Positions 1-55,387 of a stretch of 64,000 bases of DNA are shown here, in pieces; position 1 is the first letter of the stretch, and every line of letters starts with the position of its first letter. A program made the translations under genes and the position numbers. Origin of the DNA: a virus; the IMG/VR virus record IMGVR_UViG_3300032294_002877, positions 1 through 64,000 of that record; one strand, 5' to 3'. The notes under the pieces were generated by a model that saw only the letters and a program-made list of their open reading frames with translations, made no database searches and was not told the DNA's origin.

Positions 1-365
1 GGAGTACTTGTTGGTTCCGGAGTACTTGTATGCGTCGGGACCGGAGTACTTGTTGGTTCCGGAGTACTTGTATGCGTCGGGACCGGAGTACTTGTTGGTT
101 CCGGAGTACTTGTATGCGTAGGAGCGGGAGTGCTTGTGTAAGTAGGTTGTGGGGTGCTAGTATACGTAGGTTCTGGAGTACTTGTTGCTGTTGGTTCTGG
201 CGTTGGATACGGAGTACTACTAGGTTCAGGAGTTGGCGTTGAAGTAGGATACGGAGTAGTACTCGGTTCGGGTGTTGGCGTTGAAGTAGGATACGGAGTA
301 GTACTCGGTTCGGGTGTTGGCGTTGAAGTAGGATACGGAGTAGTACTCGGTTCGGGTGTTGGTGT
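1..365. repeat. Coding tandem repeats: 42-bp unit (about 1-120) and 36-bp unit (about 205-365)
   Basis: ggagtacttgttggttccggagtacttgtatgcgtcgggacc occurs about 3 times. ggatacggagtagtactcggttcgggtgttggcgttgaagta-type units occur about 4 times. Both encode PT-rich peptides on the minus strand. Confidence 0.9.
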
Positions 366-710
366 AGATGTTGCATACGGAGTACTGCTTGGTTGTGGCG
401 TTTCTGTAGGCGCAGGAGTGCTCGTTGGGCCGGGTGTGCTTGTTAGAGTTGGTGTTGGTGCTGGTGTGCTTGTTGGAGCCGGAGTGGGGGTTGGAGTTTC
501 GCATCCTCCTAAGCATGGTGCTGGTGGAGGACATATCGGTGCGGAACTAGATGAAAAAGCATCAACAGTATATATTCCATTACCGTATATGTATTGATTA
601 GGAGGTTCTCTTCTTGATGATGGAATTTCAAATAGGCCCGATACGCTATCAAAAAATGCTTTAACATTTTTATAAGAATTTAAGGGACCTTTGAATATTC
701 TACGACTCAT
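1..710 (-). CDS. Pro/Thr/Ser-repeat protein, 3'-truncated at window edge (likely virion or surface protein)
   Basis: ATG at 710 (minus) reads MSRRIFKGPLNSYKNVKAFFDSVSGLFEIPSS...CETPTPTPAPTSTPAPT... with no stop seen before the window edge. It is absent from the ORF track because it has no stop in the window. Confidence 0.8.
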   Translation of the reverse strand, partial: MSRRIFKGPLNSYKNVKAFFDSVSGLFEIPSSRREPPNQYIYGNGIYTVDAFSSSSAPICPPPAPCLGGCETPTPTPAPTSTPAPTPTLTSTPGPTSTPAPTETPQPSSTPYATSTPTPEPSTTPYPTSTPTPEPSTTPYPTSTPTPEPSTTPYPTSTPTPEPSSTPYPTPEPTATSTPEPTYTSTPQPTYTSTPAPTHTSTPEPTSTPVPTHTSTPEPTSTPVPTHTSTPEPTST

Positions 711-2862: not shown

Positions 2863-2891
2863 AAGACAGGCAGAAATGCTTGTCTTTTTTT
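2863..2891 (+). terminator. Rho-independent terminator
   Basis: AAGACAGGCA-GAAA-TGCTTGTCTT followed by a T run. Confidence 0.7.
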
Positions 2892-2932
2892 GTAGATATA
2901 GTATGATAGTATACGATACTAGAGGAGATACT

Positions 2933-4759
2933 ATGTGCGGAATTATAGGATACAAAGGTAGTAAAAAATGTTTATCTATCATATTGGACGGACTAAAAAG
3001 ATTAGAGTATCGAGGATACGATAGCGCCGGAGTAGCATGTATCATTCCTCCTAAGCTCATAACTTATAAGAGCGCGGGCTGTGTTAACGAACTAATCTAT
3101 AACTGGATAGATTTTGATTTACCGTCATATATTGGTATTGGTCATACTCGATGGGCTACTCATGGTCAGCCTTCTCAAAGAAATGCTCATCCTCATACTA
3201 CCATAGATGAGAGGGTTAGTATAGTACACAATGGCATTGTGGAAAATTATGCAGCGTTGCAGAAGGAGCTTGTGGATAAGGGATACCTATTCATATCAGA
3301 AACCGATACGGAGGTGTTGCTATATTTAATATACGACTATTTAATTAATAGCGATATTAGTTTATTCGAGGCGGTTAAGCTAGCGCTAGAAAGAGTTGTG
3401 GGCGCTTATGCTATAGCAGTATTGGATAGAAAAAGTCCGGAAACTATGGTTGTGGCCAGAAGAGGTAGTCCTTTGGTTATAGGAGTGGGTGATCCTGGAG
3501 AATATTATGTTTCTAGCGATCCTTTGGGAATAATAAATTATACTAATGATATAGTTTTTGTAGAAGATAATAGTGTTATAGAAATCGCTAATGAGTTAGT
3601 ATGTTATAATACGAGAGATAAAAACGTATCAGAGTGTAATGTATCTAAATTATATAACCAGATATATAATATTGAAAAGGGCGATTATGATCACTTTATG
3701 CTGAAAGAGATATATGAACAGCCTAAGGTTGTGGCTGACTGTTTGAGCGGACGATTGGACGGATATAGAATTAAACTAGGGGGCCTTATAGGTTATGAGA
3801 ACATTTTAAGTAATGCTGATCATATTACCATACTATCTTGCGGATCGTCTTGGCATGCTGCTCTTGTGGCTAAATATTATTTTGAGGAATTCTGTAATAT
3901 AAAAACTTCTGTAGAGTATGCTAGTGAATTTAGATATCGGAAACCTGTTATTAAAGAAGATGATATTATCATAGCCATATCTCAATCGGGCGAAACTGCT
4001 GATACTATAAGCGCTGTGGAATTAGCAAAATCTAAAGCAGCTACTGTTATAGGAGTATGCAATGTTGCTGATTCTTCTTTGGCAAGATTAACAGAGTGTG
4101 GTGTCTATTGTAGAGCCGGAACAGAGATAGGAGTAGCTAGCACCAAAGGTTTCGTGTCTCAGGTTGTGGTGCTGTTATTGATAGCATTATGGATAGAACA
4201 AAACGAAAGCTCTCATATGATAAGCGAATATCGAAAAGCTATTATAGACGATCTGAGAAGTCTTCCCGTAATTTTAGAACAAACGCTAAAACTAAATAAA
4301 AGTATTCGCTCCTTGGCCTCTAAGTTTTATAGGTCTAAGAATTGTCTTTATTTGGGCAGAGAATACAACTTTCCAATAGCTCTAGAGGGGGCTTTGAAAC
4401 TAAAAGAAATTAGCTATATTCATGCTGAAGGATATCCGGCGGCAGAGATGAAACACGGGCCTATTGCTTTGATAGATAAGAATATGCCGGTGGTGGTAAT
4501 ATCAAATAATAAAAAGCAATATGAAAAAATTGTAAATAATATTAAAGAGATACAGGCGAGACAAGGAAAAGTTATAGAGATTTATAGCGAGGATAGATTT
4601 TCGGGGGATTATGGATTACAAGTTCCAATGGTTGTGGATCCCCTAAGCCCAGTAGTGTCAAGTGTGGTATTACAGTTGTTCTCTTATTATTGCGCGGTTC
4701 TTGGCGGACACAATGTGGATAAGCCTAGAAATTTGGCAAAAAGTGTGACCGTGGAGTAG
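2933..4759 (+). CDS. glmS: Glutamine--fructose-6-phosphate aminotransferase
   Basis: N-terminal MCGIIG (catalytic Cys), GHTRWATHG, SQSGETADT and C-terminal NVDKPRNLAKSVTVE; GAGGAG RBS. Confidence 0.97.
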   Translation: MCGIIGYKGSKKCLSIILDGLKRLEYRGYDSAGVACIIPPKLITYKSAGCVNELIYNWIDFDLPSYIGIGHTRWATHGQPSQRNAHPHTTIDERVSIVHNGIVENYAALQKELVDKGYLFISETDTEVLLYLIYDYLINSDISLFEAVKLALERVVGAYAIAVLDRKSPETMVVARRGSPLVIGVGDPGEYYVSSDPLGIINYTNDIVFVEDNSVIEIANELVCYNTRDKNVSECNVSKLYNQIYNIEKGDYDHFMLKEIYEQPKVVADCLSGRLDGYRIKLGGLIGYENILSNADHITILSCGSSWHAALVAKYYFEEFCNIKTSVEYASEFRYRKPVIKEDDIIIAISQSGETADTISAVELAKSKAATVIGVCNVADSSLARLTECGVYCRAGTEIGVASTKGFVSQVVVLLLIALWIEQNESSHMISEYRKAIIDDLRSLPVILEQTLKLNKSIRSLASKFYRSKNCLYLGREYNFPIALEGALKLKEISYIHAEGYPAAEMKHGPIALIDKNMPVVVISNNKKQYEKIVNNIKEIQARQGKVIEIYSEDRFSGDYGLQVPMVVDPLSPVVSSVVLQLFSYYCAVLGGHNVDKPRNLAKSVTVE

Positions 4760-6394: not shown

Positions 6395-6498
6395 GCTAAT
6401 AAACTGGCCAATTCTATATGGGTGTGCTTATTTTTTATGGACCACCCGGCGATTTTCAGAAAAATTGCTCATATCATAAGTGAAACAAAAAAACCCCC

Positions 6499-6575
6499 TA
6501 ACTCATTACGGGGCAATAACTTATGGCATGTATCTGGCAAAAATTTGTCGTAAGTACTTGGTGCGTAAAGACTTA
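6499..6575. repeat. Paired 25-bp IHF-like palindrome element, copy 1 (52-bp period)
   Basis: TAACTCATTACGGGGCAATAACTTA (6499-6523) and TAAGTACTTGGTGCGTAAAGACTTA (6551-6575). Confidence 0.75.
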
Positions 6576-6614
6576 CGGCGAGTTTTTTGCGGTGTTGCAA
6601 AATGCAATGCAAAA

Positions 6615-6741
6615 TGCTACACATTGTAGGAAAACGATACAGCCAATATGGCAGTGCCGATATGACAGAATATCGTAACTCTAATCGTGACAATGACTTA
6701 CAACAATTCGAGAAATTTTTTTTCTTTGGCACGACGTGTGC
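6615..6741 (+). promoter_or_regulatory. sigma54-type promoter module 1 (palindromic UAS, IHF-like site, -24/-12 box)
   Basis: TGCTACA-CAT-TGTAGGA at 6615-6631; 25-bp IHF-like site at 6676-6700; TGGCACGACGTGTGC at 6727-6741. Confidence 0.7.
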
Positions 6742-6775
6742 ATTATATAGAAACATAAGAAAGAGAGAGACGAAA

Positions 6776-7006
6776 ATGAGAAACCTGATTGTTCTGAATA
6801 CTAAGGCTGAGTTGATTGCGTTCCTGAATAAGACTTCGATGCATACGCTGGTGAATAGCGTAGCGTTTGCTAGTGATTTGTTGGAAATGGTTCGTGAGAA
6901 CGATAATATTGTGGAAATAAACGAAGATTTGGGATTCGTTGATGATGGTGGATGGATTGAGATTGACGAAATGGGTTATGTTGTGAAGGATTTCGCAATC
7001 TGCTGA
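6776..7006 (+). CDS. Hypothetical protein downstream of sigma54-type promoter
   Basis: ATG after purine-rich leader AAGAAAGAGAGAGACGAAAATG. Confidence 0.65.
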   Translation: MRNLIVLNTKAELIAFLNKTSMHTLVNSVAFASDLLEMVRENDNIVEINEDLGFVDDGGWIEIDEMGYVVKDFAIC

Positions 7007-7341
7007 AAAACATTTGTTCAGTGTTGACAAGCAAAAAACCGATAAGTATACTAGGGAAAAGGAAAACAAATGATAACTCAGGAAATGCGTGATTTGGCGA
7101 ACAATCTAGGGCTCATCGTTTCGAGCGTTTGGGATGGACTTTCCCGCAAATGGATTGTTCATGAGCGAAACGGAGCGTATCATCCTGTTTTCACCACGAA
7201 CGAATATGATAGACTTATGGATGGCTTGCGAAATGGCGGAAAGTTTCGATCCCTCTAAGGTAGGGTGAATATATGTTCAGTGTATTTTTGTTCATTGTGG
7301 CAATAATTCTTATTGGAATCGCGTATCAATAAGATTTGACG

Positions 7342-7419
7342 TAAACCCTTGCGGCATAAACACTTACGACGATTTCGCGGCCAAAAATTTGACGTAACTG
7401 CTTATGCAGCAACGACTTA
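7342..7419. repeat. Paired 25-bp IHF-like palindrome element, copy 2
   Basis: Halves at 7342-7366 and 7395-7419; 53-bp period. Confidence 0.85.
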
Positions 7420-7433
7420 CGCCAAGTTTTGAC

Positions 7434-7448
7434 GCAAACGGTGTGCCA
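7434..7448 (-). promoter_or_regulatory. Minus-strand sigma54 -24/-12 box
   Basis: Reverse complement TGGCACACCGTTTGC matches TGGCAC-N5-TTGC. Confidence 0.65.
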
Positions 7449-7497
7449 AACGTGGTAACCCCCATACTGAGGGGCTGTTGCAAAATGCCGAGCAAAA

Positions 7498-7623
7498 TGC
7501 TACACATTGTAGCAAAACGCTACAGCCAATATGGCGGTGCCAAACTGACAGAATGACGCAACTCTAATAGCGATAACAACTTACAACAATTCGCAAAATT
7601 TTTTTCTTTGGCACGGTATCTGC
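7498..7623 (+). promoter_or_regulatory. sigma54-type promoter module 2
   Basis: Perfect palindrome TGCTACA-CAT-TGTAGCA at 7498-7514; IHF-like site at 7559-7583; TGGCACGGTATCTGC at 7609-7623. Forms a direct repeat of module 1. Confidence 0.72.
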
Positions 7624-7656
7624 ATTATATAGAAGCATAAGAAAGAGAGAAAGAAA

Positions 7657-7800
7657 ATGAGTAAGACGATTAGCAATGCGATGAAAAGAATTCACCAAGA
7701 GGCTAGGATTGCCAAGGCATACGATATGCCGATTATGAATAAGGATATGAAAAAGAATGATGAGGGTGTGAAAAAGTTTTTTGAGAGTCTCAAGAAATAG
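7657..7800 (+). CDS. Small basic hypothetical protein, 47 aa
   Basis: MSKTISNAMKRIHQEARIAKAYDMPIMNKDMKKNDEGVKKFFESLKK after the same purine-rich leader as 6776. Confidence 0.55.
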   Translation: MSKTISNAMKRIHQEARIAKAYDMPIMNKDMKKNDEGVKKFFESLKK

Positions 7801-7803
7801 CCC

Positions 7804-7832
7804 TTGACAAGCCGAATAAACCTATATAGAAT
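7804..7832 (+). promoter_or_regulatory. sigma70-type promoter
   Basis: TTGACA-17-TAGAAT. Confidence 0.75.
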
Positions 7833-7856
7833 ATCACCAACACAAAGGAAAAGAAA

Positions 7857-8099
7857 ATGATTTTCGAAACGATTGACGAACTGAACGAGTATCTGGCAAA
7901 CGGTGGGGATGGTGTTTCGGTTATCGGATGCACGGTGGCTGGGGAGTTGCTGGAGAGCATGAAGAACGAAGCGGTTTTTGCTCGCAAGTGGGGATGGAAA
8001 GGGTTTGCTGTGTTGACGGAATTCTACATGGGTGAGGGTGAGGAAATCTCTTGCAATGAGGATGGCGTGATCGATTATGAGCATCTCTACTTGGGATGA
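7857..8099 (+). CDS. Small acidic hypothetical protein
   Basis: ORF with RBS downstream of the promoter; Asp/Glu-rich. Confidence 0.65.
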   Translation: MIFETIDELNEYLANGGDGVSVIGCTVAGELLESMKNEAVFARKWGWKGFAVLTEFYMGEGEEISCNEDGVIDYEHLYLG

Positions 8100-8487
8100 A
8101 CGATTGTATAGTATTGACGCTCCAGAAATTTCTGCTAGAATAGAATCATAAGAAAGAGAGAAAGAAAAATGAAGACTTGGACACGAGACAATCGCCCGTT
8201 GGTTTGGACGGTGAACGAGAACAACCATGAGACGTACGATCTGTATGTACATGGTGTGTGCGTTGGTGAGGGTATGGATTTCGATACATTCTATGCCATG
8301 TATAAGCAGTACAGAAAGGTTTGAAGATACCACCCAAAAGGGGGATATACATATGTTCTATTGCTTCTGCTGGATTTTCTGCAAAATCGACAATTATTTC
8401 CAGGATAGGTACTGGAAGAAACTTGGGTATTCTAGGTATACTGGGCAGGATGGAAAAGAGTGGTATGTAAGCGATCTAAACTGATCG

Positions 8488-8565
8488 TAAACCCTTGCTA
8501 CCAAACGACTTAGGGTGAATCGGCGGCGCCCAATTTGACGTAACTCCTTGTGCGGTAACGACTTA
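8488..8565. repeat. Paired 25-bp IHF-like palindrome element, copy 3
   Basis: Halves at 8488-8512 and 8541-8565; 53-bp period. Confidence 0.85.
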
Positions 8566-8579
8566 CATGAAATGTTATC

Positions 8580-8594
8580 GCAACTGGTATGCCA
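8580..8594 (-). promoter_or_regulatory. Minus-strand sigma54 -24/-12 box
   Basis: Reverse complement TGGCATACCAGTTGC. Confidence 0.6.
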
Positions 8595-8707
8595 CAAATA
8601 TTTCTCCGTTTGGCATGAAATTATATTTGCTTTTTTGGAAAGATTTCTCTTGCAATGGCCGATAATATCTGTAGAATCAAAGCATCACAAGGAACGAAAG
8701 GGAAACC

Positions 8708-8878
8708 ATGAACGAATTCGAACGAATCATTGGGGATAGCATGATCGACGAGAACGGCAAGGAATGGATCGTGGACGATGCTACGGGTTGGGATCCGATC
8801 ATGGGAGACGACGAAGATTGGATCGACACGGATGATGAGTGGCTCGATGATTTCCAGGGTGAGGAGGAGTTTGCATGA
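8708..8878 (+). CDS. Highly acidic 56-aa protein
   Basis: MNEFERIIGDSMIDENGKEWIVDDATGWDPIMGDDEDWIDTDDEWLDDFQGEEEFA; translated by hand. Confidence 0.65.
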   Translation: MNEFERIIGDSMIDENGKEWIVDDATGWDPIMGDDEDWIDTDDEWLDDFQGEEEFA

Positions 8879-9055
8879 AAACGTACTATATTTACAATGC
8901 GGAAAATGATTTCTACTTGGGCATGGTACTTGCAAAGGATTGGGTGGACGCACGTTCAGTGTACGCCCAGCAGCATGGCGTATCATTCGGTTCAGTGTAC
9001 GCTTGTGCATCACCACTATAGGGGTAATCCCCATTGTGATGGAGATCGGTTGACG

Positions 9056-9133
9056 TAAACCCTTGCGGCGTAAGCACTTAGAGCAAATCGGCGGCGCAAA
9101 ATTTGACGTAAACCCTTACGCCACAATAACTTA
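9056..9133. repeat. Paired 25-bp IHF-like palindrome element, copy 4
   Basis: Halves at 9056-9080 and 9109-9133; 53-bp period. Confidence 0.85.
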
Positions 9134-9148
9134 CGACGAGTTTTCTTA

Positions 9149-9163
9149 GCAAATACTGTGCCA
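9149..9163 (-). promoter_or_regulatory. Minus-strand sigma54 -24/-12 box
   Basis: Reverse complement TGGCACAGTATTTGC. Confidence 0.65.
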
Positions 9164-9206
9164 AAAAATTGTGCTCAAATTGTGGGCATACCCTACTGTA
9201 TCAAAA

Positions 9207-9362
9207 TGCTACACATCTAGGTTATAGGCCGAAATACGCGACGCAAAATGCTACAACACTGTAGCGAAATGCTACGCTCAAAAGTTGGGCACAAAAAATA
9301 GCATAGCGTTTTCCCCGTGAAAATCGAGGAAAAATATTTTTCGGCTTTGGCACGGAAGATGC
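9207..9362 (+). promoter_or_regulatory. sigma54-type promoter module 3
   Basis: TGCTACA half-sites at 9207 and TGCTACA-ACAC-TGTAGCG at 9249-9266; TGGCACGGAAGATGC at 9348-9362. Confidence 0.65.
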
Positions 9363-9396
9363 ATTTATATATGGCATAAGAAAGTGAGAGTGAGAG

Positions 9397-9558
9397 ATGA
9401 TGAATGAGAAAGTGTTCTACGTTTCCGATTGCTGCTATGTTGAGAGTAACCCGGATTATGGGGTTTGCTCCTGCTGTGGTGAGCATTGCGAGATTATCAC
9501 CGATGATAGTTTGGTTTCCGACTACATTCCGGGTTATGATGATGGTGAGGCTTGCTAG
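9397..9558 (+). CDS. Small Cys/Asp-rich protein, 53 aa
   Basis: MMNEKVFYVSDCCYVESNPDYGVCSCCGEHCEIITDD...; follows module 3 leader. Confidence 0.55.
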   Translation: MMNEKVFYVSDCCYVESNPDYGVCSCCGEHCEIITDDSLVSDYIPGYDDGEAC

Positions 9559-9860
9559 TCTCCCTCAGTGTGGGGGTTGTGGATAAGAAAAAGTTTGGTA
9601 TAATACTGGAAAGAGAAAGAGAGAAAGAAAATGACGTATAAAGAAAAACTGATCCGCGAAGTTCACGAAGCCTCTAAGAAAATTACCGATCTTCGTGATA
9701 TGCTGGAGGATGGCGTTCCTGCCAGTAAGCATAAGGCTATCATCAAGCATATTGACGATCTTTCAACATTTATTTTCTATACCCAAGAGACTATCAGCGA
9801 TATGGCTTGACACCGTATCCCTAGTCTGCTAGAATCCGTCATCCTTTGGAGAAAAAGAAA

Positions 9861-10190
9861 ATGAGCAAGTTCCCGATTGTTGAGAAGGCCAAGCGTCAAG
9901 CCCGTATGATTTTTGTTGGTATGGCTATTCCATGCCAGAAGAGTCTAGCGTCCGGTGAGTATGGCCCGATTCGTTGCGAAAAGGTTCTCAAGTTCAATCG
10001 TACCGCTCTGCGGAATATCGGTAAGCGTAAGATTGAAAAGGCCGATCCCCGCCTCGTGGGGGGTGAGGATACCATGATCGTGAAGGTAGGAACACCGGGT
10101 AGTCCGGAGCGTAAAGCGGCTCTTGCCGAACAGTATGCTGCTATTCTGGCATGCGGTGAGGAAATCAGCCCGTTTGCTTGGAAGGAATAG
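9861..10190 (+). CDS. Hypothetical protein
   Basis: GGAG RBS and upstream promoter; basic protein. Confidence 0.65.
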   Translation: MSKFPIVEKAKRQARMIFVGMAIPCQKSLASGEYGPIRCEKVLKFNRTALRNIGKRKIEKADPRLVGGEDTMIVKVGTPGSPERKAALAEQYAAILACGEEISPFAWKE

Positions 10191-10330
10191 TATGAACACC
10201 CGTACACTTCAGGATATTTTGCGAGCCGAACAGGTTCGGCTACCATCCATCACTAACCCTCTCATGCGACGGATAGTGAAAAAGCGTATACAGGTGCTCG
10301 CCCGTACACTACTGTACAGGTATCGAGCTA

Positions 10331-10375
10331 GTCTCACCTAATCCTGCGGATTTGGGATAAGGTGGTATAGTCAGC
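10331..10375 (+). promoter_or_regulatory. Tripartite motif GTCYCA-N10-CGGRTTTG-N12/13-TAGTCAGC, copy 1
   Basis: Recurs 8 times, at 10331, 15559, 22655, 22830, 24235, 24366, 26163 and 26327. Confidence 0.6.
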
Positions 10376-10376
10376 G

Positions 10377-10454
10377 TAAGTCTTTAGCCAGTAAGGACTT
10401 AGAACGAATCGGCGGCGCCCAGTTTGTCGTAACTCCTTATGCAGTAAGGGTTTA
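10377..10454. repeat. Paired 25-bp IHF-like palindrome element, copy 5
   Basis: Halves at 10377-10401 and 10430-10454. Confidence 0.85.
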
Positions 10455-11422: not shown

Positions 11423-11701
11423 GAGCGAAAAAAATTTTTCTAAAGATTTTGCTTGACTCTTGCCGATCTATACTGTAGAATCGAATGCAGAAGAAAGAAA
11501 GGTGAGATATGAAAACGAAGAAGCAAAACGCGTACCAAAAAGCGGTTGCTCGCATGGAAAAGGAAACAAGCCGTGCGGTTGCTCATGTGGAATTGCTCCA
11601 GAAGCTATACGCTGAAATGGTCAAAAAAAATGCTAAAGTTTCCTCTTGACAAGTGCCGATTATTCTGGTAGACTGAACCCATCACAACGGAGAAGATTAT
11701 C

Positions 11702-11854
11702 ATGTTCAATTTTGACGAAGTGAACGCGATTCTGGCCGAGATGCGAGATGGTGGTATGGTCGAGCCGATTGACGATCCGACTATCAACGTGGATTTTTGG
11801 GACTGGGCCGATGTGATCGGTGTGGTCGAAGATTTTGAGCCTTTGGAATTTTGA
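11702..11854 (+). CDS. Small acidic protein, 50 aa
   Basis: MFNFDEVNAILAEMRDGGMVEPIDDPTINVDFWDWADVIGVVEDFEPLEF; GGAG RBS and promoter at 11646-11674. Confidence 0.6.
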   Translation: MFNFDEVNAILAEMRDGGMVEPIDDPTINVDFWDWADVIGVVEDFEPLEF

Positions 11855-12708: not shown

Positions 12709-12951
12709 CGTCTCAATAATTTTTTCTATATTTTTCTCTTGACACTTGCCGATTATACTGTAGAATAATCGCATGAACACTAATAACTGCTATGCCGGAT
12801 TTTCGTGGCGTGTTTTCAAAAATAATCGGTTCGCCGGTTATGTTGTGGCTCTGAGCCAGACGGATGCTATACGCAAAGCCGTCGAGAAGTATGGTCGATA
12901 TGTGTGGGTTGAACGGATTACCTATAGTCGGGTCTAGTCAAGGGAATAAAT

Positions 12952-13413
12952 ATGTTCACGGTCAATCATATGAATCGGGTTTTGTGCGAAATCAAGGGAT
13001 TGGGTAGCAAGAGTGTGTTTTCTATTCGTAAGAGTCGCCTGACTTATAGACTTTCTTGCATGAATAGCCAACACCGTGGTGCGATTATTGAGAAGATGAT
13101 TCGGGATAGGTTCATTATGCAGGGTAAGCGGGTTAGGTATATCGGGGGAAGTAATTCGTTCGATATGCTGGTTGATGGTGAGCGTGTGGAAATCAAGTCC
13201 TCTCTGCCTATGGTGATTCCTACCAAGAAGGGTCATACTCTTTTCTATAGGTTTCAGAATATCAAAACTAAGTATTTTGATAAGATTGTACTGGTTTATG
13301 TTAGTCCGAATGGTTTGAGGGTAAAAACTTTCACTAAAAAGACTATGATGAAGATGCTGCGGAAGAGCAAGTATTATGCCAACGGCAAAATGTATGCGTG
13401 TGCGGCAAAATAA
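12952..13413 (+). CDS. Putative PD-(D/E)XK nuclease-fold protein
   Basis: E...FDMLVDGERVEIKSS, resembling the D-x(n)-E-x-K active-site motif. Confidence 0.55.
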   Translation: MFTVNHMNRVLCEIKGLGSKSVFSIRKSRLTYRLSCMNSQHRGAIIEKMIRDRFIMQGKRVRYIGGSNSFDMLVDGERVEIKSSLPMVIPTKKGHTLFYRFQNIKTKYFDKIVLVYVSPNGLRVKTFTKKTMMKMLRKSKYYANGKMYACAAK

Positions 13414-13995: not shown

Positions 13996-14073
13996 TAAGT
14001 TCTTGATACCAAAGGACTTAGGGCAAACCCGCGCCGCCCGGCTCGACGTAAGTGCTTGGTAGCAAAAGAGTTG
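13996..14073. repeat. Paired 25-bp IHF-like palindrome element, copy 8
   Basis: Halves at 13996-14020 and 14049-14073. The left half contains TATCAAGAACTTA on the minus strand, an exact WATCAANNNNTTR match. Confidence 0.85.
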
Positions 14074-14138
14074 CATCAAAAAAATATTTTTTCAAGAAAC
14101 CCTATTGACAAGCCGATAATAGAGTGTAGAATGATGGA

Positions 14139-14455
14139 GTAAGACAAAACAATATGCGTGGGTCCAAGCGCACGGACTAGATTGGGATAACCTGTACGAT
14201 AAACCCTTACCAGCGATTGCTGTTTGGGTTGCCTAACGGGGTTATACGTTGGGATAGTATACCAGTCTATGGGGGATCGCGTCCTCACCACGCTCCATAC
14301 AACCAGTAACCGTCACCAAGAGCCAGACTAACCGGAACATGATGCTAGCAGTTCATCCGGTTACAGGGAGGTTTCCGTGGGCGGTTTCCATCCGATCCTG
14401 ACAAGGGACAATCGTATGGTCTATAGGAATCGGGGCGTAAAAGATTCCGCTGGTT
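14139..14455 (+). ncRNA. Candidate structured ncRNA, about 310 nt
   Basis: Own promoter (TTGACA 14105 / TAGAAT 14127), no plus-strand ORF, several helices including TAGATTGG/CCAGTCTA, CCTAACG/CGTTGGG, TAACCGGA/TCCGGTTA and GGAATC/GATTCC. Confidence 0.5.
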
Positions 14456-17389: not shown

Positions 17390-17399
17390 CAATTCAAAC

Positions 17400-17644
17400 T
17401 GGACTATGCCAGTATAAAGAGATTTTAGGCATAGTGCGGCGGGATTCGTCCCGCGTAATGAGAGTTCGTTGCAGACCTAGGTGCAGCCTAGAGAGGGATT
17501 TAACCAATCCTATAAGACGGGTGGTTCCGTCGAAAGTTGTTGCTCTCTAGAGTTTTATTACTAATATAGATGGTACAACAACGCCAGCAAACCGATAGAC
17601 GCTGACGAGCCCCGGCGGTAGCACCGTCCGGGCTATCGGTCTAT
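17400..17644 (+). ncRNA. Candidate multi-hairpin structured RNA directly upstream of the tRNA cluster
   Basis: Helices ACTATGCC/GGCATAGT, GCGGGA/TCCCGC, CTAGAGAG/CTCTCTAG enclosing two hairpins, ACCGATAG/CTATCGGT, and GTTGTTG/CAACAAC (possible pseudoknot). Confidence 0.55.
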
Positions 17645-17716
17645 GGGGCCATAGTTAAATGGATATAACACGGGATTTCTAATCCTGTATTGTAGGTTCG
17701 ATTCCTACTGGCCCTA
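17645..17716 (+). tRNA. tRNA-Arg(TCT)
   Basis: Acceptor GGGGCCA/TGGCCCT; anticodon loop TT-TCT-AA; GGTTCGATTCC T arm. Confidence 0.9.
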
Positions 17717-17723
17717 CTTTTTT

Positions 17724-17797
17724 GGGGGTGTAGATCAATTGGTTAGATCGTTAGCCTGTCACGCTAAAGGTTGCGGGTTCAAGTCCCGTCACCCTCG
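17724..17797 (+). tRNA. tRNA-Asp(GTC)
   Basis: GGGGGTG/CACCCTC; TTAGC-CTGTCAC-GCTAA. Confidence 0.92.
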
Positions 17798-17800
17798 CTA

Positions 17801-17883
17801 GGTGGATTACTCAAGTGGTCAACGAGGGCAGACTGTAAATCTGCTGGCTTTTGCCTTCGGGAGTTCGAATCTCTCATCCACCA
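17801..17883 (+). tRNA. tRNA-Tyr(GTA)
   Basis: GGTGGAT/ATCCACC; GCAGA-CTGTAAA-TCTGC; long variable arm. Confidence 0.92.
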
Positions 17884-47279: not shown

Positions 47280-49163
47280 ATGATAGATAAAATTAAGGCG
47301 ATATTATCTTCACAAGAGTGTGAGTATTTTAGTATTGCTTTTCTTTATCATTGTATAGTTATAGGTTTGTTAGCCTTTTGTTTTGTTGCTATTGATAGGC
47401 CAGAAAAAGTATTTAGTATTATCATTCAGAATGATGATGTTGTAATTGATACTGAGACTTTTACAGAACCGGAGATCACCAACTTCGATCCTACACAAAC
47501 ATCTTTTGAAGATTCTCCAATCGTTCCGTCTAATGAATCTTCACTATCTGTAGACAATAAAATTGACGTTCCTTCTACTGTGGAATTATCCAATTTGGAA
47601 ATTAGCGAGCCGGATTTTATAGGATCAAACTCTGGAGATATTTTAGCGGGTGTTGGGAAGTTGATCGGCAAAGGAATATCGGCAGAACAAAATACTGGTG
47701 GTGCGTTAGATAGATTAACGGCAGAAATTGTTAGCAATGCGTCCGATAAAAATTTGAATGTGTTATGGCTATTAGACGCCTCAATTAGTTTATCTCATCA
47801 ACGACAAGATATTAGAGAAAGATTCGACAAGATTCTATCCGAGATTAGTTTTAGCCAAAATACAAGTCATACCATTAACCATGGTATTTTTAGTTTTGGT
47901 CTTTCTCATAATAAGTTGTGTGATTTTACTAGCGATGCTAATGTTCTCAAGGACAGTTTTGCATCCATAGTTTTAGATACTTCTGGCACAGAGAATATCT
48001 TTCAAACTATTCTTGAATTATCTAATACTTATGGCAAAAAAGATCCACGATTGATGATCGTGGTTTTCACTGATGAAATAGGTGATGATGTAGATTATCT
48101 AGACAGAGCGGCAGTATCATCCCGTAAAAAAGGAACTATGGTTTATGTTGTAGGAAGCCCAGCACCTTTTGGCAAAAGCAAAACACAATTCAAGTACGTC
48201 GATCCCGATCCTAATTATGATCAAAGCGAAAAGTGGGTAGAGATTCAGCAGGGGCCGGAAACCTTATACCCAATGATTCTAGACATTCATGCCTTACCAA
48301 TTGACGAACAAACACTAGACAGCGGGTATGGGCCGTTTGCTTTGTGTTCATTGTGTTCAGAAACCGGAGGAATATTTTTCAGCGTTCATCCTAACAGATC
48401 GTCATCGGTTCTATCTAAGAAAGATATTAGTCCACTAGCCTCTAACATCTCTAAGTTTTTTGATACTGATGTAATGAGAAGTTACAGCCCAGATTATAGA
48501 TCATTTGCATTACAGGCCAAGGAAAATCAAACCCACAGAATAAAGAACGCTTTAGTACAAGCAGCATCTACGAAACTAGATATTCGTGGAGAACAAACGC
48601 TAAAGTTTAATGCTTTTACAGAAGGGGATTTTGTAAACGAATTAGGCAAAGCACAAAGATTCTCTGCTAAAATAGAACCTAAAATTAATCAGATACTAAC
48701 CACGCTACAGAATACAGAGAAAGAATTTGATACTCTAAAGGACAAAAGATGGAAAGCGTCATATGCTTTGGCTATGGGAAGGATATTAGCCACAAAAACA
48801 AGAATTGAATTTTATAACCAAGTATTAGCAGAAGCAAAAACTGGTCTAAAAAAGAAAGACCAAAAGAGTAATGTTTGGGTATTAAATCATACGGATAAGT
48901 TTGCTACTACTAATAGTCAACTTAATAAAAACTACAAACAAGCACGGTATTATCTAAATTATGTAATTGATACATATCCAGATACTCCTTGGGCCTATAT
49001 TGCTAACGAGGAAATAAAAACTCCTTTTGGATACGAATGGACTGAGAGTTATATTGAGCCACCAAAAATGGGTGGCGGAGGTAATAACAATCCTAATCCT
49101 CCAAAGGATGATACAATCAAAAAATTACAACCTAAACCACAAAGAAAGATAGAAAAAATATGA
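47280..49163 (+). CDS. Membrane-anchored von Willebrand factor A domain protein (planctomycete type)
   Basis: N-terminal TM; MIDAS DASIS, SGTE and VVFTDE motifs. Confidence 0.8.
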   Translation: MIDKIKAILSSQECEYFSIAFLYHCIVIGLLAFCFVAIDRPEKVFSIIIQNDDVVIDTETFTEPEITNFDPTQTSFEDSPIVPSNESSLSVDNKIDVPSTVELSNLEISEPDFIGSNSGDILAGVGKLIGKGISAEQNTGGALDRLTAEIVSNASDKNLNVLWLLDASISLSHQRQDIRERFDKILSEISFSQNTSHTINHGIFSFGLSHNKLCDFTSDANVLKDSFASIVLDTSGTENIFQTILELSNTYGKKDPRLMIVVFTDEIGDDVDYLDRAAVSSRKKGTMVYVVGSPAPFGKSKTQFKYVDPDPNYDQSEKWVEIQQGPETLYPMILDIHALPIDEQTLDSGYGPFALCSLCSETGGIFFSVHPNRSSSVLSKKDISPLASNISKFFDTDVMRSYSPDYRSFALQAKENQTHRIKNALVQAASTKLDIRGEQTLKFNAFTEGDFVNELGKAQRFSAKIEPKINQILTTLQNTEKEFDTLKDKRWKASYALAMGRILATKTRIEFYNQVLAEAKTGLKKKDQKSNVWVLNHTDKFATTNSQLNKNYKQARYYLNYVIDTYPDTPWAYIANEEIKTPFGYEWTESYIEPPKMGGGGNNNPNPPKDDTIKKLQPKPQRKIEKI

Positions 49164-50404
49164 ATCGCAGACATTTCCTTAGCCATCTCGCTGGTGCTGC
49201 CGCATTATCATCTCCAGCAATCGACTTTACTAATACTATTCTAGCAAATGCTAACGATCTTAAAAAGGAACATAAGAGTGCTATTCTTTTGTGGATGGGT
49301 GGTGGCCCAAGCACAATGGATATATGGGATTTAAAGCCCGGTACTCCTACTGGTGGCCCTTTTAAACCTATTAGCACAAGTGCTGACGGTATTCAAATCT
49401 GCGAACATATGCCACTCATGGCAAAACAAATGCATCATATGAATATTGTGCGTAGTATGAGTACCAGAGAAGCAGATCATATGAGAGGTCGCTATTATAT
49501 GCACACAGGATATGTTCCAACACCAACAATTGAACATCCTAGTTATGGTGCTGTCGTTGCTCATGAATTAATTAGCGATGTTCCACAACTAGAAATTCCA
49601 CCATTTATTAGTGTTGGTGGAGGTAGTGTTGGGCCAGGATTTTTAGGTATGACTTATGCTCCTTTCGTTGTTAATTCAAATGGAAATGTTCGTGATTTAA
49701 GTATGGGTGTAGACGATGCTATTCTAAATCAAAGACTACAAATGCTTAGAACAATTGAGGATAGATTCATATCTGAAAAACGAGGATCAACATCAATAGA
49801 CCATGATAAAGTCTTAAACAAGACACTAAAACTTATGACCAGCAAACAAATGGACGCTTTAAAGGTAGCCAAAGAACCAGAAGAAGTTCGTGAGCGTTAT
49901 GGTAATACTGGTTTTGGGCGAGGTTGTCTAATGGCCCGCAGATTAGTAGAGACAGGTGTTCCATTTATCGAGGTTGATTTAGGTGGCTGGGATAATCATG
50001 CTAATATTTTTCCAACATTACAGGACACTAAACTTCCAGAATTAGACAAGGCTATGAGTGCTTTGATTAGTGATCTACATGATCGTGGATTGCTAGAAAC
50101 TACTGCTATTATATGGATGGGTGAATTTAGTCGCACACCAAATATTAATGGCAATACTGGTCGTGATCATTGGGCTAGAAGTTGGAGTGTAGTCGTTGGT
50201 GGTGCTGGTTTTAATAAGGGTATTGTTGTTGGCGAAACAAGCAGCGACGGTAAAGAAGTAATCACCGAACCATATAGTTCACAAGACTTAATGGCTAGTG
50301 TTTTAAAATCCTTAGATATTTCACTGGAAACAACATTTACCTCAAAAAATGGTCGTCCAATGAAGATAGCAAATTCCGGCAAAGTTATCAAAGAATTATT
50401 CTGA
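49160..50404 (+). CDS. DUF1501 family protein with Tat signal
   Basis: MNRRHFL; LWMGGGPSTMDIWDLKP, GCLMARRLVETGVPF, GGWDNH, GEFSRTP and GRDHW motifs. Confidence 0.92.
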   Translation: MNRRHFLSHLAGAAALSSPAIDFTNTILANANDLKKEHKSAILLWMGGGPSTMDIWDLKPGTPTGGPFKPISTSADGIQICEHMPLMAKQMHHMNIVRSMSTREADHMRGRYYMHTGYVPTPTIEHPSYGAVVAHELISDVPQLEIPPFISVGGGSVGPGFLGMTYAPFVVNSNGNVRDLSMGVDDAILNQRLQMLRTIEDRFISEKRGSTSIDHDKVLNKTLKLMTSKQMDALKVAKEPEEVRERYGNTGFGRGCLMARRLVETGVPFIEVDLGGWDNHANIFPTLQDTKLPELDKAMSALISDLHDRGLLETTAIIWMGEFSRTPNINGNTGRDHWARSWSVVVGGAGFNKGIVVGETSSDGKEVITEPYSSQDLMASVLKSLDISLETTFTSKNGRPMKIANSGKVIKELF

Positions 50405-54145: not shown

Positions 54146-55387
54146 ATGAAACATTCACGCCGAAAATTTACTCTAGGACTAACATCATTAGGTCTTACCG
54201 CTTTTTCTTCTAATATTGCTTTTAGTGTTGAAGAAAATATTCCCAAATGCGATCACAATAACAATAGCGTTATTTACTTGTTTTTAAGTGGTGGCCCAAC
54301 ACATATAGAAACTTTTAATCCAATCCCAAACGCTACATCAGATAGAAAATCTGTTATTGGCGACAGAGCAACAAAAACTCCGGGGTTTGGTATAGGTGGA
54401 TTATGGGAAAAAATATCAACAGTTTCGGATAAATTTTGTGTTGTGAATAGTTTTCATCATAGTGATCCTAACCATGAGAGTGCTGTTCATTGGATGATGA
54501 CCGGAGAAAGAAACGTACCAAATGCTGCACAGAAGTGGCCCAGTTTTGGTAGTGTAGTAGTTGGGCAGTATGGTACGAATATTGATTCTGGTTTGCCGAC
54601 ATACGTTAAACTAAATCCAATACAGCATGACGGTGCATCATGGATGGGTAGTAAATACATGGGTTATGGTGCTTCTGGAGAAGGCGTCAAAGATTTGATG
54701 CTGAAACAAAAAGATCGTTTTGAAAACAGAGCAAATATTCTAAAAACTCTGGATCATTCTCCGGTATTTAAAAGCAACGACACTGCTAGTAAAAACTGGA
54801 TAGAATTACGAAATCAAGCCATTAATGTTCTCTTGGGAACCGCCAACGAGGCTTTTCTAGTAGACAAAGATCCAGAATACGATACTTATAAAAAGGATCA
54901 ATTAGGTAAAGACTTACTAACAGCAATACGATTAGTCGAGCGTGGAGTAAAGTTTGTTACCATAAATTATGGTGGTTGGGATATGCATCAAAATATTAAT
55001 CAGGGCTTGAACAAACTAATTCCTCCATTAGATAATTATCTATATCATTATTTTAATTCAGCACAAAGAAGGGAGATAAATAAGAGGAATATGCTAGTGA
55101 TGACCGGGGATTTTGGACGAACCCCAAAGGTTAATAAAGATGCTGGCAGGGATCATTGGCCTCATCTGGTTCCCTTATTCATCGCCAGCGACAGTTATGA
55201 AATGGGAAGGGTGATCGGTAAGTCTGATTTAAACGCGGAGCGTCCAGACGTTGATCCATATGAACCAGAAGATTTAAAGTGGACTATCTTGAATCATATG
55301 GGAGTCAATAAAAACGCTAACTGGACTAGTATTGAGCAAAGACCTATGATATTTGTGAAAGACACTGCAAAAAATATCCTAGTCTAA
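54146..55387 (+). CDS. DUF1501 family protein with Tat signal (second copy)
   Basis: SRRKF; LFLSGGPTHIETF, AIRLVERGVKFV, GGWDMH, GDFGRTPKVN and GRDHWP motifs. Confidence 0.92.
   Translation: MKHSRRKFTLGLTSLGLTAFSSNIAFSVEENIPKCDHNNNSVIYLFLSGGPTHIETFNPIPNATSDRKSVIGDRATKTPGFGIGGLWEKISTVSDKFCVVNSFHHSDPNHESAVHWMMTGERNVPNAAQKWPSFGSVVVGQYGTNIDSGLPTYVKLNPIQHDGASWMGSKYMGYGASGEGVKDLMLKQKDRFENRANILKTLDHSPVFKSNDTASKNWIELRNQAINVLLGTANEAFLVDKDPEYDTYKKDQLGKDLLTAIRLVERGVKFVTINYGGWDMHQNINQGLNKLIPPLDNYLYHYFNSAQRREINKRNMLVMTGDFGRTPKVNKDAGRDHWPHLVPLFIASDSYEMGRVIGKSDLNAERPDVDPYEPEDLKWTILNHMGVNKNANWTSIEQRPMIFVKDTAKNILV

What the first reader, a model, noticed from the sequence alone, without database searches (positions are those of the whole stretch)
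7342..9163. Minus-strand sigma54 boxes positioned so transcription would start exactly at the edge of the double-palindrome repeat
Seen: near-consensus boxes occur on the minus strand at 7434-7448 (TGGCACACCGTTTGC), 8580-8594 (TGGCATACCAGTTGC) and 9149-9163 (TGGCACAGTATTTGC). Each -12 GC sits 15-16 bp from the right end of repeat copies 2, 3 and 4. The predicted +1 (about 7422, 8568, 9137) falls 3-4 nt outside the repeat each time. In two cases the box is divergent from a plus-strand sigma54 promoter and shares the central palindromic UAS. No minus-strand gene follows. Inference: the repeat may be transcribed as an antisense small RNA with two hairpins, the boxes may produce antisense RNA against upstream early genes, or RpoN holoenzyme may be parked there as a roadblock or decoy.
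Basis: partly seen in the sequence, partly recalled or inferred. Interest (0 to 1): 0.8.

Follow-up and report, generated by a model that had tools for sequence, protein, structure and literature searches.

The report
Backward-facing sigma-54 sites in phage
A large uncultured freshwater phage, and dozens of its relatives, carry near-perfect docking sites for the host's sigma-54 RNA polymerase that point backwards, against the early genes and straight into a protein-binding double palindrome, at a fixed distance; this layout is conserved across the family but its function is untested.

Summary
Observation confirmed and extended. The three minus-strand boxes (7434-7448, 8580-8594, 9149-9163) match TGGCAY-N5-TTGC exactly. 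With a fourth at 13367-13381 they are the only exact matches in the 180-kb genome (0.09 expected per window). Each starts 12-13 nt after copies 2-4 of the 14-copy double palindrome.

In 63 non-redundant relatives such boxes are about 190-fold enriched. They favour the minus strand (152 against 83), and the 12-13-nt offset is the main mode (33 cases, with a second mode at 8-9). A sub-branch has an unrelated double palindrome (TGCCA-N3-TGGCA, twice) and again has minus boxes 2-7 nt from it. The boxes are also spaced in steps from the next rightward sigma-70 promoter and are confined to the head of the early region.

The palindrome looks like a DNA protein site (IHF-like), not a covarying RNA stem, so the two-hairpin small-RNA reading is weak. 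Host sigma-54 polymerase most likely docks there. Whether it fires leftward antisense RNA or only sits poised cannot be decided from sequence.

The probable hosts are freshwater Planctomycetota, which carry rpoN. The scan had already noted this repeat and sigma-54 boxes in related phages on other DNA (e1-5381015).

The parts
7434..7448 (-). Sigma-54 -24/-12 box TGGCACACCGTTTGC. It lies 12 nt after repeat copy 2, with predicted +1 near 7422.
   Evidence: Exact pattern match; offset.
8580..8594 (-). Sigma-54 box TGGCATACCAGTTGC. It lies 12 nt after repeat copy 3, with predicted +1 near 8568. It is part of a composite that is conserved in at least 13 junctions of relatives.
9149..9163 (-). Sigma-54 box TGGCACAGTATTTGC. 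It lies 13 nt after repeat copy 4, with predicted +1 near 9137. The identical box occurs in relatives G004/G005. Ortholog L232 keeps it, with changes only in the N5 spacer.
13367..13381 (-). Fourth exact minus-strand box, TGGCATAATACTTGC. It lies at the 3' end of a plus-strand ORF, 47 nt before a sigma-70 promoter. No good repeat copy is beside it.
7340..7421 (.). Double-palindrome repeat copy 2: two 29-nt halves 53 nt apart with a GC-rich centre. It is an IHF-like DNA site.
8486..8567 (.). Double-palindrome repeat copy 3.
9054..9135 (.). Double-palindrome repeat copy 4.
7498..7514 (.). UAS palindrome TGCTACACATTGTAGCA, between the minus box of copy 2 and the plus promoter at 7609.
9249..9266 (.). 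UAS palindrome TGCTACAACACTGTAGCG, about 96 nt from the minus box GG and about 92 nt from the plus promoter GG.
7609..7623 (+). Enhancer-type sigma-54 promoter TGGCACGGTATCTGC, followed by a conserved AT-rich TATATA stretch. It drives the next early gene.
9348..9362 (+). Enhancer-type sigma-54 promoter TGGCACGGAAGATGC.
8610..8630 (+). Conserved partner element TTGGCATGAAATTATATTTGC, 15 nt to the right of the copy-3 minus box (16 nt to its TGGCA). It has a -24-like TGGCA but no -12 GC at the sigma-54 spacing.
8650..8677 (+). Sigma-70 early promoter (TTGCAA, 16 nt, TAGAAT). Its -35 element starts 55 nt after the copy-3 minus box.

Best explanation
The boxes are real docking sites for the host's sigma-54 RNA polymerase. 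They are a fixed part of a conserved cassette-boundary control module, which reads from left to right: a protein-bound double palindrome, then a sigma-54 box facing it, then an A/T tract, then a rightward early promoter.

I think the most likely working is this. The holoenzyme sits there as the stable closed complex typical of sigma-54, aimed leftward. When a host enhancer-binding activator is active it fires a non-coding leftward transcript. That transcript starts at the edge of the palindrome and runs against the end of the preceding early cassette. It would act in cis, by collision or antisense pairing, on transcription arriving from the left. The protein on the palindrome would gate it like an operator.

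Shown: the boxes exist, they are non-random, and the rigid GG-N10-GC geometry, orientation bias and spacing are conserved. Inferred: holoenzyme binding, firing, and any effect on the neighbouring genes.

The confidence of 0.4 is for this firing mechanism. That the boxes are selected sigma-54 holoenzyme sites at all I put at about 0.85.
For: - The window has exact consensus boxes: 4 in the genome, all on the minus strand, against 0.09 expected.
- Family counts are 152 minus and 83 plus strict boxes in 678 kb, against about 1 in shuffles. TGGCA-N(k)-TTGC peaks only at k=6, with 242 cases against 2-9 for other k. That is the sigma-54 geometry.
- Transcription runs rightward (576 sigma-70-type promoters on plus, 38 on minus). 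The boxes nevertheless favour minus (per-locus sign test 37 against 14, p=0.002).
- The offset to the palindrome is fixed: 12 nt in 20 cases, 13 nt in 13 and 8-9 nt in 12. All spacers are unique and only 50-60% alike.
- A sub-branch with an unrelated palindrome shows the same logic. 41 minus boxes have TGCCA-N3-TGGCA 2-7 nt downstream; none of the 83 plus boxes does.
- Ortholog L232 keeps the copy-4 box, with changes only in the N5 spacer.
- Boxes of both orientations are confined to the same roughly 5 kb as the UAS sites, whereas repeats and sigma-70 promoters continue beyond it. That fits dependence on an enhancer.
- The layout 'minus box, UAS, plus promoter' recurs in L062, L074, L095, L110 and L121.
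- The likely host lineage (freshwater Pirellulales/Planctomycetaceae, from an acquired DUF1501 gene 78-83% identical) carries rpoN in 5 of 5 genomes checked.
- There are published precedents: divergent sigma-54 promoters zraP/zraSR (PMC4987338), and a conserved antisense promoter in the early region of phiKMV-like phages, proposed to stop transcription into the early genes (PMC10914365).
Against: - No transcript, start site or binding data exist.
- Most minus boxes have no UAS nearby, and the phage encodes no activator or sigma-54.
- The 14 nt after the -12 GC are 45% GC with no consensus. The UAS-linked plus promoters have 23% GC and a conserved TATATA there, so the minus boxes do not look tuned for melting.
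- 13 face-to-face pairs only 4-6 nt apart, and tandem boxes at 26-27-nt periods, cannot all be occupied or fired at once.
- The predicted start abuts or lies inside a probable protein site.
- No terminator for a leftward RNA was found.
- The distance from UAS to minus box shows no clean helical phasing (59.5, 96, 107, 115.5).
- The shared offset is partly inherited, because the spacers are related.
Confidence: 0.4

Rival explanations
1. Architectural docking only. Sigma-54 holoenzyme binds as an inactive closed complex and never needs to fire. Its role is structural. Together with the palindrome-binding protein it would build a boundary complex just upstream of the next early promoter. That complex would either tune the sigma-70 promoter from its back or shield it from incoming transcription.
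For: - The box is locked on both sides. It lies 12-13 nt (or 8-9 nt) from the palindrome, and its distance to the next -35 element falls in steps of 31-33, 41-45 and 52-56 nt.
- The region after the -12 GC is GC-rich and unconserved, unlike that of the true plus promoters.
- Face-to-face and tightly tandem boxes make sense as binding sites but not as independent promoters.
- Most minus boxes have no UAS nearby.
- In E. coli most sigma-54 sites are bound but transcriptionally silent, and sigma-54 can repress an overlapping promoter (PMC4591121).
Against: - The same E. coli study found no roadblock effect of bound sigma-54 on overlapping genes.
- The boxes do not overlap the core sigma-70 promoter.
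- Confinement to the UAS-bearing zone is not explained.
- No protein-protein contact of this kind is known.
Confidence: 0.3
2. A discrete sigma-54-dependent small RNA. The repeat itself would be the gene, transcribed leftward into a roughly 90-nt structured RNA. The reader pictured two hairpins; here it folds as one long hairpin.
For: - Minus-strand RNA of copies 2 and 4 folds into one long hairpin from nucleotide 1 (-36.9 and -31.3 kcal/mol, z -5.9 and -2.7). This is much better than the plus strand.
- Sigma-54-dependent small RNAs exist in bacteria, for example GlmY/GlmZ (reference list of PMC4987338). Qrr and CrcZ are further examples from my own knowledge.
Against: - Copy 3 folds no better than shuffles (z 0.2).
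- Across 232 elements the inner stem positions pair in only 30-56% of cases, with invariant rather than covarying bases.
- Elements with a minus box are no more foldable on the minus strand than those without (p about 0.3).
- 167 of 232 repeat copies have no strict box within 70 nt after them.
- In the sub-branch the predicted start falls inside the first palindrome arm.
- There is no terminator and no Rfam match.
Confidence: 0.08
3. Decoy or sponge. The sites exist to soak up scarce host sigma-54 holoenzyme as the phage DNA multiplies. That would blunt host sigma-54-dependent stress responses, or time the shut-off of the phage's own sigma-54 promoters.
For: - A 12-kb early region carries as many perfect boxes (up to 12) as a whole 3-5-Mb genome of the likely host lineage (1-12 each).
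- There is no activator gene in the phage.
- Many boxes lack a UAS.
Against: A sponge needs neither an orientation bias, nor a fixed offset to a palindrome, nor stepped spacing to the next promoter, nor confinement to one zone.
Confidence: 0.1
4. The boxes are not sigma-54 sites at all. They would be operators of another (phage or host) protein, or inherited parts of a longer repeat with no function of their own.
For: - Boxes often occur as inverted pairs (TGGCA...TGCCA), as sites for a dimer would.
- The sub-branch palindrome itself contains TGGCA.
- The spacers are related by descent.
Against: - Single boxes are not palindromic.
- Both half-elements and the exact one-turn spacing of sigma-54 promoters are kept (242 cases against about 5 for other spacings).
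- The flanks follow the sigma-54 consensus (TTGGCAY...TTGCT).
- The same genomes use the same motif in textbook enhancer-type promoters with a UAS and an IHF-like site.
Confidence: 0.07

Closest known systems
Bacterial enhancer-dependent sigma-54 (RpoN) promoters, including divergent pairs that share one enhancer, such as zraP/zraSR (PMC4987338)
   Same: - The same TGGCAY-N5-TTGC motif with rigid spacing.
- At copies 2 and 4 a palindromic UAS lies between two outward-facing boxes.
- An IHF-like site sits between the UAS and the plus promoter.
   Different: - No gene follows the minus box.
- Most family boxes have no UAS nearby.
- The palindrome lies at or just after the predicted start instead of upstream.
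- The boxes occur face-to-face and in tight tandems.
Widespread silent, intragenic and antisense sigma-54 binding sites of E. coli and Salmonella (Bonocora et al. 2015, PMC4591121; Samuels et al. 2013, PMC3844500)
   Same: Good sigma-54 sites that head no gene, many of them antisense. They are bound as inactive closed complexes, and their function is debated (antisense RNA, interference, roadblock).
   Different: - Here the sites are intergenic.
- They are about 190-fold enriched.
- They are locked in position to a palindrome and to the next promoter.
- They are biased against the direction of transcription, whereas the E. coli intragenic sites favour the sense orientation.
PeSL (promoter-early stem-loop) cassettes of T4-type phages (PMC2839356, PMC4122927)
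   Same: A short repeated composite of a palindrome plus an early promoter sits at the boundaries of small early or accessory gene cassettes, and the cassettes are shuffled between relatives.
   Different: - PeSLs are a terminator stem-loop plus a sigma-70 promoter.
- Here the palindrome is a phased double protein-type site.
- Some modules carry a backward-facing sigma-54 box, which has no counterpart in PeSLs.
The conserved antisense promoter in the early region of phiKMV-like phages (LUZ19 P001), and the sigma-54 use of Pseudomonas phage YuA (PMC10914365)
   Same: - A conserved promoter facing against the phage genes near the early region, proposed to stop transcription into the early genes.
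- YuA shows that a phage can use host sigma-54.
   Different: - LUZ19 P001 is read by the phage's own RNA polymerase and is a single site.
- The YuA sigma-54 promoter, as reported, is an ordinary promoter, not part of a backward-facing set beside palindromes.
- Here there are many sites per genome and they are for host sigma-54.

Membership tests
Sigma-54 (RpoN) -24/-12 promoter element | GG and GC doublets exactly one helical turn apart, within TGGCAC-N5-TTGCW | tested here: met
   Three exact matches at the stated places plus a fourth. In the family only the k=6 spacing is enriched, with 242 cases against 2-9 for other spacings. The extended consensus is tTTGGCAy..taTTTGCt.
Sigma-54 (RpoN) -24/-12 promoter element | The host possesses sigma-54 | tested here: met
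   5 of 5 genomes of the likely host lineage (freshwater Planctomycetota) have a Sigma54_DBD gene with E about 1e-60. The host assignment itself rests on one acquired gene.
Sigma-54 (RpoN) -24/-12 promoter element | An enhancer (UAS) bound by an AAA+ activator within looping reach | tested here: inconclusive
   A UAS palindrome lies 59.5 and 96 nt (centre to the box GG) from the boxes of copies 2 and 4. None lies near copy 3 or near the fourth box at 13367. The phage has no activator gene. The UAS was not found in 5 candidate host genomes.
Sigma-54 (RpoN) -24/-12 promoter element | Holoenzyme binding and activator-dependent initiation about 12 nt after the GC | not testable with these tools
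   This needs footprinting, ChIP or start-site mapping.
Sigma-54-dependent small RNA gene (GlmY/GlmZ, Qrr type) | A conserved RNA structure, supported by covariation, followed by a terminator | tested here: not met
   Inner stem positions pair in 30-56% of elements and there is no covariation. There is no strand preference linked to the box, no terminator and no Rfam match.
IHF-type DNA-bending site (the double palindrome next to the boxes) | Core CAA-N4-TTR, and a position between UAS and the -24 element in sigma-54 promoters | tested here: inconclusive
   Each arm has an invariant AA-N4-TTA, preceded by C or T. A single half-unit sits 41-42 nt after the UAS and 22-24 nt before the plus promoter in the window and several relatives. 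The WAT part of the E. coli consensus is not conserved. The phage has no HU/IHF gene. Binding is untested.
PeSL-type mobile regulatory cassette | A repeated palindrome-plus-early-promoter unit at the boundaries of shuffled small-gene cassettes | tested here: met
   There are 14 copies at intervals of 0.5-2.0 kb, and 10 are followed by a sigma-70 promoter at 28-30 nt. Cassette order differs between relatives. This is a likeness in layout, not common descent.

The most novel reading that the evidence does not exclude
A whole family of large freshwater phages uses host sigma-54 polymerase as a built-in, switchable boundary device. A holoenzyme is poised backwards against a protein-bound double palindrome at the end of each immediate-early cassette. 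On a host signal it either fires antisense transcription to shut those cassettes off, or it acts as part of an insulating complex. This would be a use of the sigma-54 closed complex that has not been described for any virus or bacterium.
Probability: 0.3. Interest if true: 0.8.

Novelty: new variant of a known kind. Interest (0 to 1): 0.62.

Why it matters
Sigma-54 is the one bacterial sigma factor that parks polymerase on DNA until an ATP-driven activator releases it, and its use by phages is almost unstudied.

This family supplies about 150 natural examples of such sites in one orientation. They are locked to a neighbouring protein site and to the next promoter, in phages of a poorly known host phylum.

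That makes a long-debated question directly testable: what do sigma-54 sites that head no gene actually do (antisense control, interference, or architecture)? The module is short and repeated, and its natural variants already differ in offset, in pairing and in the type of palindrome.

It also bears on how large lytic phages time and insulate dozens of tiny early cassettes without obvious terminators.

Tried and rejected
- A nucleotide search of the phage collection with 6400-10400 found nothing. Relatives sought through the neighbouring subtilase gene also gave nothing. Relatives were reached instead through the UAS pattern and a conserved 109-aa early protein.
- My first comparison, with only five relatives, suggested that the offset was not conserved (27-38 nt). 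The 63-genome survey overturned that.
- Rfam shows no known RNA family at the repeats or boxes.
- I tested whether repeats next to a minus box fold better on the minus strand, or carry the AAACC variant more often. They do neither (p 0.29-0.35).
- Helical phasing between the UAS and the minus box is not clean.
- No terminator for a leftward RNA was found.
- The ten early proteins around the boxes have no Pfam or PHROG match that would name a palindrome-binding protein.
- No phage-encoded sigma-54, activator or HU/IHF was found. One weak AAA+ hit at 66172-66291 covers only the Walker region.
- The UAS palindrome has no exact match in 5 candidate host genomes.
- The metagenome scan gave only two closer relatives. 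One of them (L232) covers copy 4.
- Geometry argues against the idea that a parked holoenzyme stalls incoming polymerase so that a repeat hairpin terminates it. The stalled active site would lie inside the B half, not 7-9 nt past a hairpin. This is my own inference.
Full report
**What the window is.** The window is the first 64 kb of a 180,460-bp virus record with 35% GC. From about 6.4 to 22.6 kb lies an early region of very small plus-strand genes. Each cassette has its own promoter and a purine-rich ribosome-binding site. The cassettes are separated by 14 copies of an 82-nt element made of two 29-nt palindromic halves exactly 53 nt apart (52 in copy 1) with a GC-rich centre. Ten copies are followed after 28-30 nt by a sigma-70 promoter of the form TTGAC-N4-GCCGATA...TAGAAT. 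Copies 1, 2 and 4 are followed instead by a palindromic UAS (AAAATGCTACA-N3/4-TGTAGC), an extra single half-unit, and a plus-strand sigma-54-type promoter (TTTGGCACG-N4-nTGCAT-TATATA).

**The observation.**
- The three minus-strand boxes are at the stated coordinates. With a fourth at 13367-13381 they are the only exact TGGCAY-N5-TTGC matches in the window (0.09 expected) and in the whole genome.
- They start 12, 12 and 13 nt after the B half of repeat copies 2, 3 and 4.
- The predicted starts (7422, 8568, 9137) fall just outside the repeat.
- Copies 2 and 4 are divergent from plus promoters, with a UAS between them. Copy 3 is not.
- No credible minus-strand gene follows any of them.

**Relatives.** The phage collection gave nothing. 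The UAS pattern and then a conserved 109-aa early protein (alignment A1) gave 78 viral contigs, of which 63 are non-redundant, from phages of 150-230 kb.
- In these 678 kb there are 83 plus-strand and 152 minus-strand strict boxes, against about one in shuffles.
- TGGCA-N(k)-TTGC is enriched only at k=6: 242 cases against 2-9 at every other spacing. This is the rigid one-turn geometry that defines sigma-54 promoters, so I take the boxes to be sigma-54 sites and not some other operator.
- Transcription in these regions runs rightward (576 sigma-70-type promoters against 38). The boxes nevertheless favour the opposite strand (binomial p 8e-6; per-locus sign test 37 against 14, p 0.002).

**Is the offset conserved?** A first look at five relatives suggested not (27-38 nt). 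The full survey shows that it is.
- Among minus boxes that follow a repeat, the gap is 12 nt in 20 cases, 13 nt in 13, 8-9 nt in 12, and scattered in the rest. Plus boxes show no such mode.
- All spacers are unique and only 50-60% identical to one another. The shared length is therefore partly inheritance and partly constraint.
- A closer relative from a metagenome (L232, about 86% identical) has the orthologous copy-4 junction. Its box differs only at two N5 positions, its spacer is 12 nt instead of 13, and half of its UAS is deleted.
- Where the gap is longer, a plus-strand box has usually been placed between the repeat and the minus box, giving a face-to-face pair 4-6 nt apart (13 cases). 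Back-to-back pairs (10) and tandem minus boxes (20) also occur.

**A second, independent version of the same layout.** Fourteen relatives lack this repeat. They carry a different double palindrome, TGCCA-N3-TGGCA, paired at a strict 29-bp spacing (73 cases). There, 41 minus boxes have such a palindrome 2-7 nt downstream (mode 6), and none of the 83 plus boxes does. Two unrelated palindromes with the same arrangement argue that what is selected is a sigma-54 box aimed into a double palindrome at short range.

**The other side of the box.** The distance from the minus box to the next rightward -35 element clusters at 31-33 nt (25 cases), 41-45 (8) and 52-56 (20). The distal boxes of tandem pairs fall at 68-71 (11). 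Copy 3 of the window belongs to a composite found in at least 13 junctions of relatives. From left to right it reads:
- repeat;
- 12 nt (consensus acgAGTTTTGAC);
- the minus box;
- 16 nt;
- TTGGCAyGAAATTATATTTG;
- the sigma-70 promoter.

Boxes of both orientations and the UAS sites are confined to about 5 kb at the head of the early region. The repeats and sigma-70 promoters continue for many more kilobases.

**What the repeat is.** In 232 distinct elements only TAA, TT, AA and (C)TTA are invariant (TAA-N4-TT-N7-AA-N4-TTA in each half). The positions between them would pair in only 30-56% of elements, and there is no covariation. This is the signature of a symmetric protein site on DNA, not of an RNA stem. 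Each arm contains AA-N4-TTA, which resembles the IHF core CAA-N4-TTR. A single half-unit also sits where IHF sites sit in sigma-54 promoters: 41-42 nt after the UAS and 22-24 nt before the plus promoter. The phage has no HU/IHF gene. I call the repeat IHF-like, with binding untested. As a repeated palindrome-plus-promoter unit at the boundaries of shuffled cassettes, it resembles the PeSL cassettes of T4-type phages (PMC2839356, PMC4122927).

**RNA readings.** In the window, minus-strand RNA from copies 2 and 4 would fold into one long hairpin starting at nucleotide 1 (z -5.9 and -2.7). Copy 3 would not (z 0.2). Across the family, elements with a minus box fold no better on the minus strand than the others. 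No terminator or Rfam family was found. A discrete structured small RNA is therefore unlikely. A plain leftward transcript remains possible.

**Firing or parked?**

In favour of firing:
- The boxes match the promoter consensus exactly.
- They keep to the UAS-bearing zone.
- The layout 'minus box, UAS, plus promoter' recurs in the window and five relatives.
- Bacterial divergent sigma-54 pairs exist (zraP/zraSR, PMC4987338).
- PhiKMV-like phages have a conserved antisense promoter in their early region, proposed to stop transcription into the early genes (PMC10914365).

In favour of docking only:
- Most minus boxes have no UAS nearby.
- Face-to-face and tight tandem boxes cannot all work as promoters.
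- In E. coli most sigma-54 sites are bound but silent (PMC4591121).

The same paper found no roadblock effect of bound sigma-54 on overlapping genes, which weakens the simple roadblock idea. A pure sponge explains neither the orientation nor the spacing, although box density is striking. One early region holds as many perfect boxes as a whole 3-5-Mb genome of the likely host lineage.

**Host.** A DUF1501 gene of the phage is 78-83% identical to genes of freshwater Pirellulales/Planctomycetaceae genomes assembled from metagenomes. Five of five such genomes encode sigma-54. The phage encodes neither sigma-54 nor an activator. The UAS palindrome was not found in those five genomes.

**Verdict.** My best reading (about 0.4) is a poised, conditionally fired leftward sigma-54 promoter. 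It would be gated by the palindrome-bound protein and would act in cis on the preceding cassette. A purely architectural docking site is nearly as likely (0.3). The small-RNA, sponge and non-sigma-54 readings trail behind.

**Earlier notes of this scan.** The scan had already described the double palindrome and loose sigma-54 boxes in related freshwater phages on other DNA (e1-5381015, e1-5785049), and sigma-54 site arrays in other phages (e1-5751807, e1-5406878). New here are the orientation bias, the fixed coupling of box to palindrome in two palindrome types, the stepped spacing to the next promoter, and the contrast with the true plus promoters.

Noticed in passing
window 17398-17460 (+): Rfam match to the Pistol self-cleaving ribozyme (52.5 bits against a gathering score of 34.5, E 3e-07). 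It lies just upstream of a phage tRNA cluster (17645-17883).
   Followed up: no
window 2876-4759 (+), 49160-50404 (+) and 54146-55387 (+): The phage carries a full-length GlmS-like gene (GATase plus two SIS domains). It also carries two DUF1501 genes, and the one searched (49160-50404) is 78-83% identical to genes of freshwater Planctomycetota. These look like recent host-derived metabolic genes and give the host assignment. In enterobacteria glmS is controlled by sigma-54-dependent small RNAs; this is probably a coincidence here.
   Followed up: partly
window 8610-8630 (+), and 13 or more junctions in L061, L069, L073, L075, L090, L100: There is a conserved element TTGGCAyGAAATTATATTTG, 16 nt to the right of the minus box. 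It has a -24-like TGGCA, but TTAT where sigma-54 promoters have TTGC. It could be a crippled box, an upstream element of the sigma-70 promoter, or a site for something else.
   Followed up: partly
L049 (G001) 11695-11780 and 12738-12830; L050 (G003) 14049-14140: In some relatives a plus-strand sigma-54 box is followed at its predicted start by a small hairpin CCTTACGAyATTGTAAGG plus a T-run, and then by a sigma-70 promoter. Its arms (CTTACG/GTAAG) resemble the arms of the big repeat in everted order.
   Followed up: no
L123, L106, L077, L111, L094, L099 (for example L123 3100-3180): In the sub-branch a conserved stretch of about 25 nt (CTCGCTGGCTRACTGYCATWATKT on the minus strand) follows the TGCCA-N3-TGGCA pair at several cassettes, so the repeated unit there is longer than the palindromes.
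   Followed up: no
window 6776-7003 compared with L052 3910-4127: The same early gene is driven by a UAS plus sigma-54 promoter in the window. In a relative it is driven by tandem sigma-70 promoters behind a face-to-face box pair. Promoter type is therefore swapped between relatives while the gene is kept.
   Followed up: partly
window 6524-6538 (+): Copy 1 of the repeat has, in place of the GC-rich centre, a plus-strand near-box TGGCATGTATCTGGC (GG and GC at the right spacing), and it lacks a minus box.
   Followed up: no
window 1-500: The record starts with a long array of 18/24/42-nt tandem repeats (GGAGTACTTGT...), probably coding for a repetitive protein on one strand.
   Followed up: no
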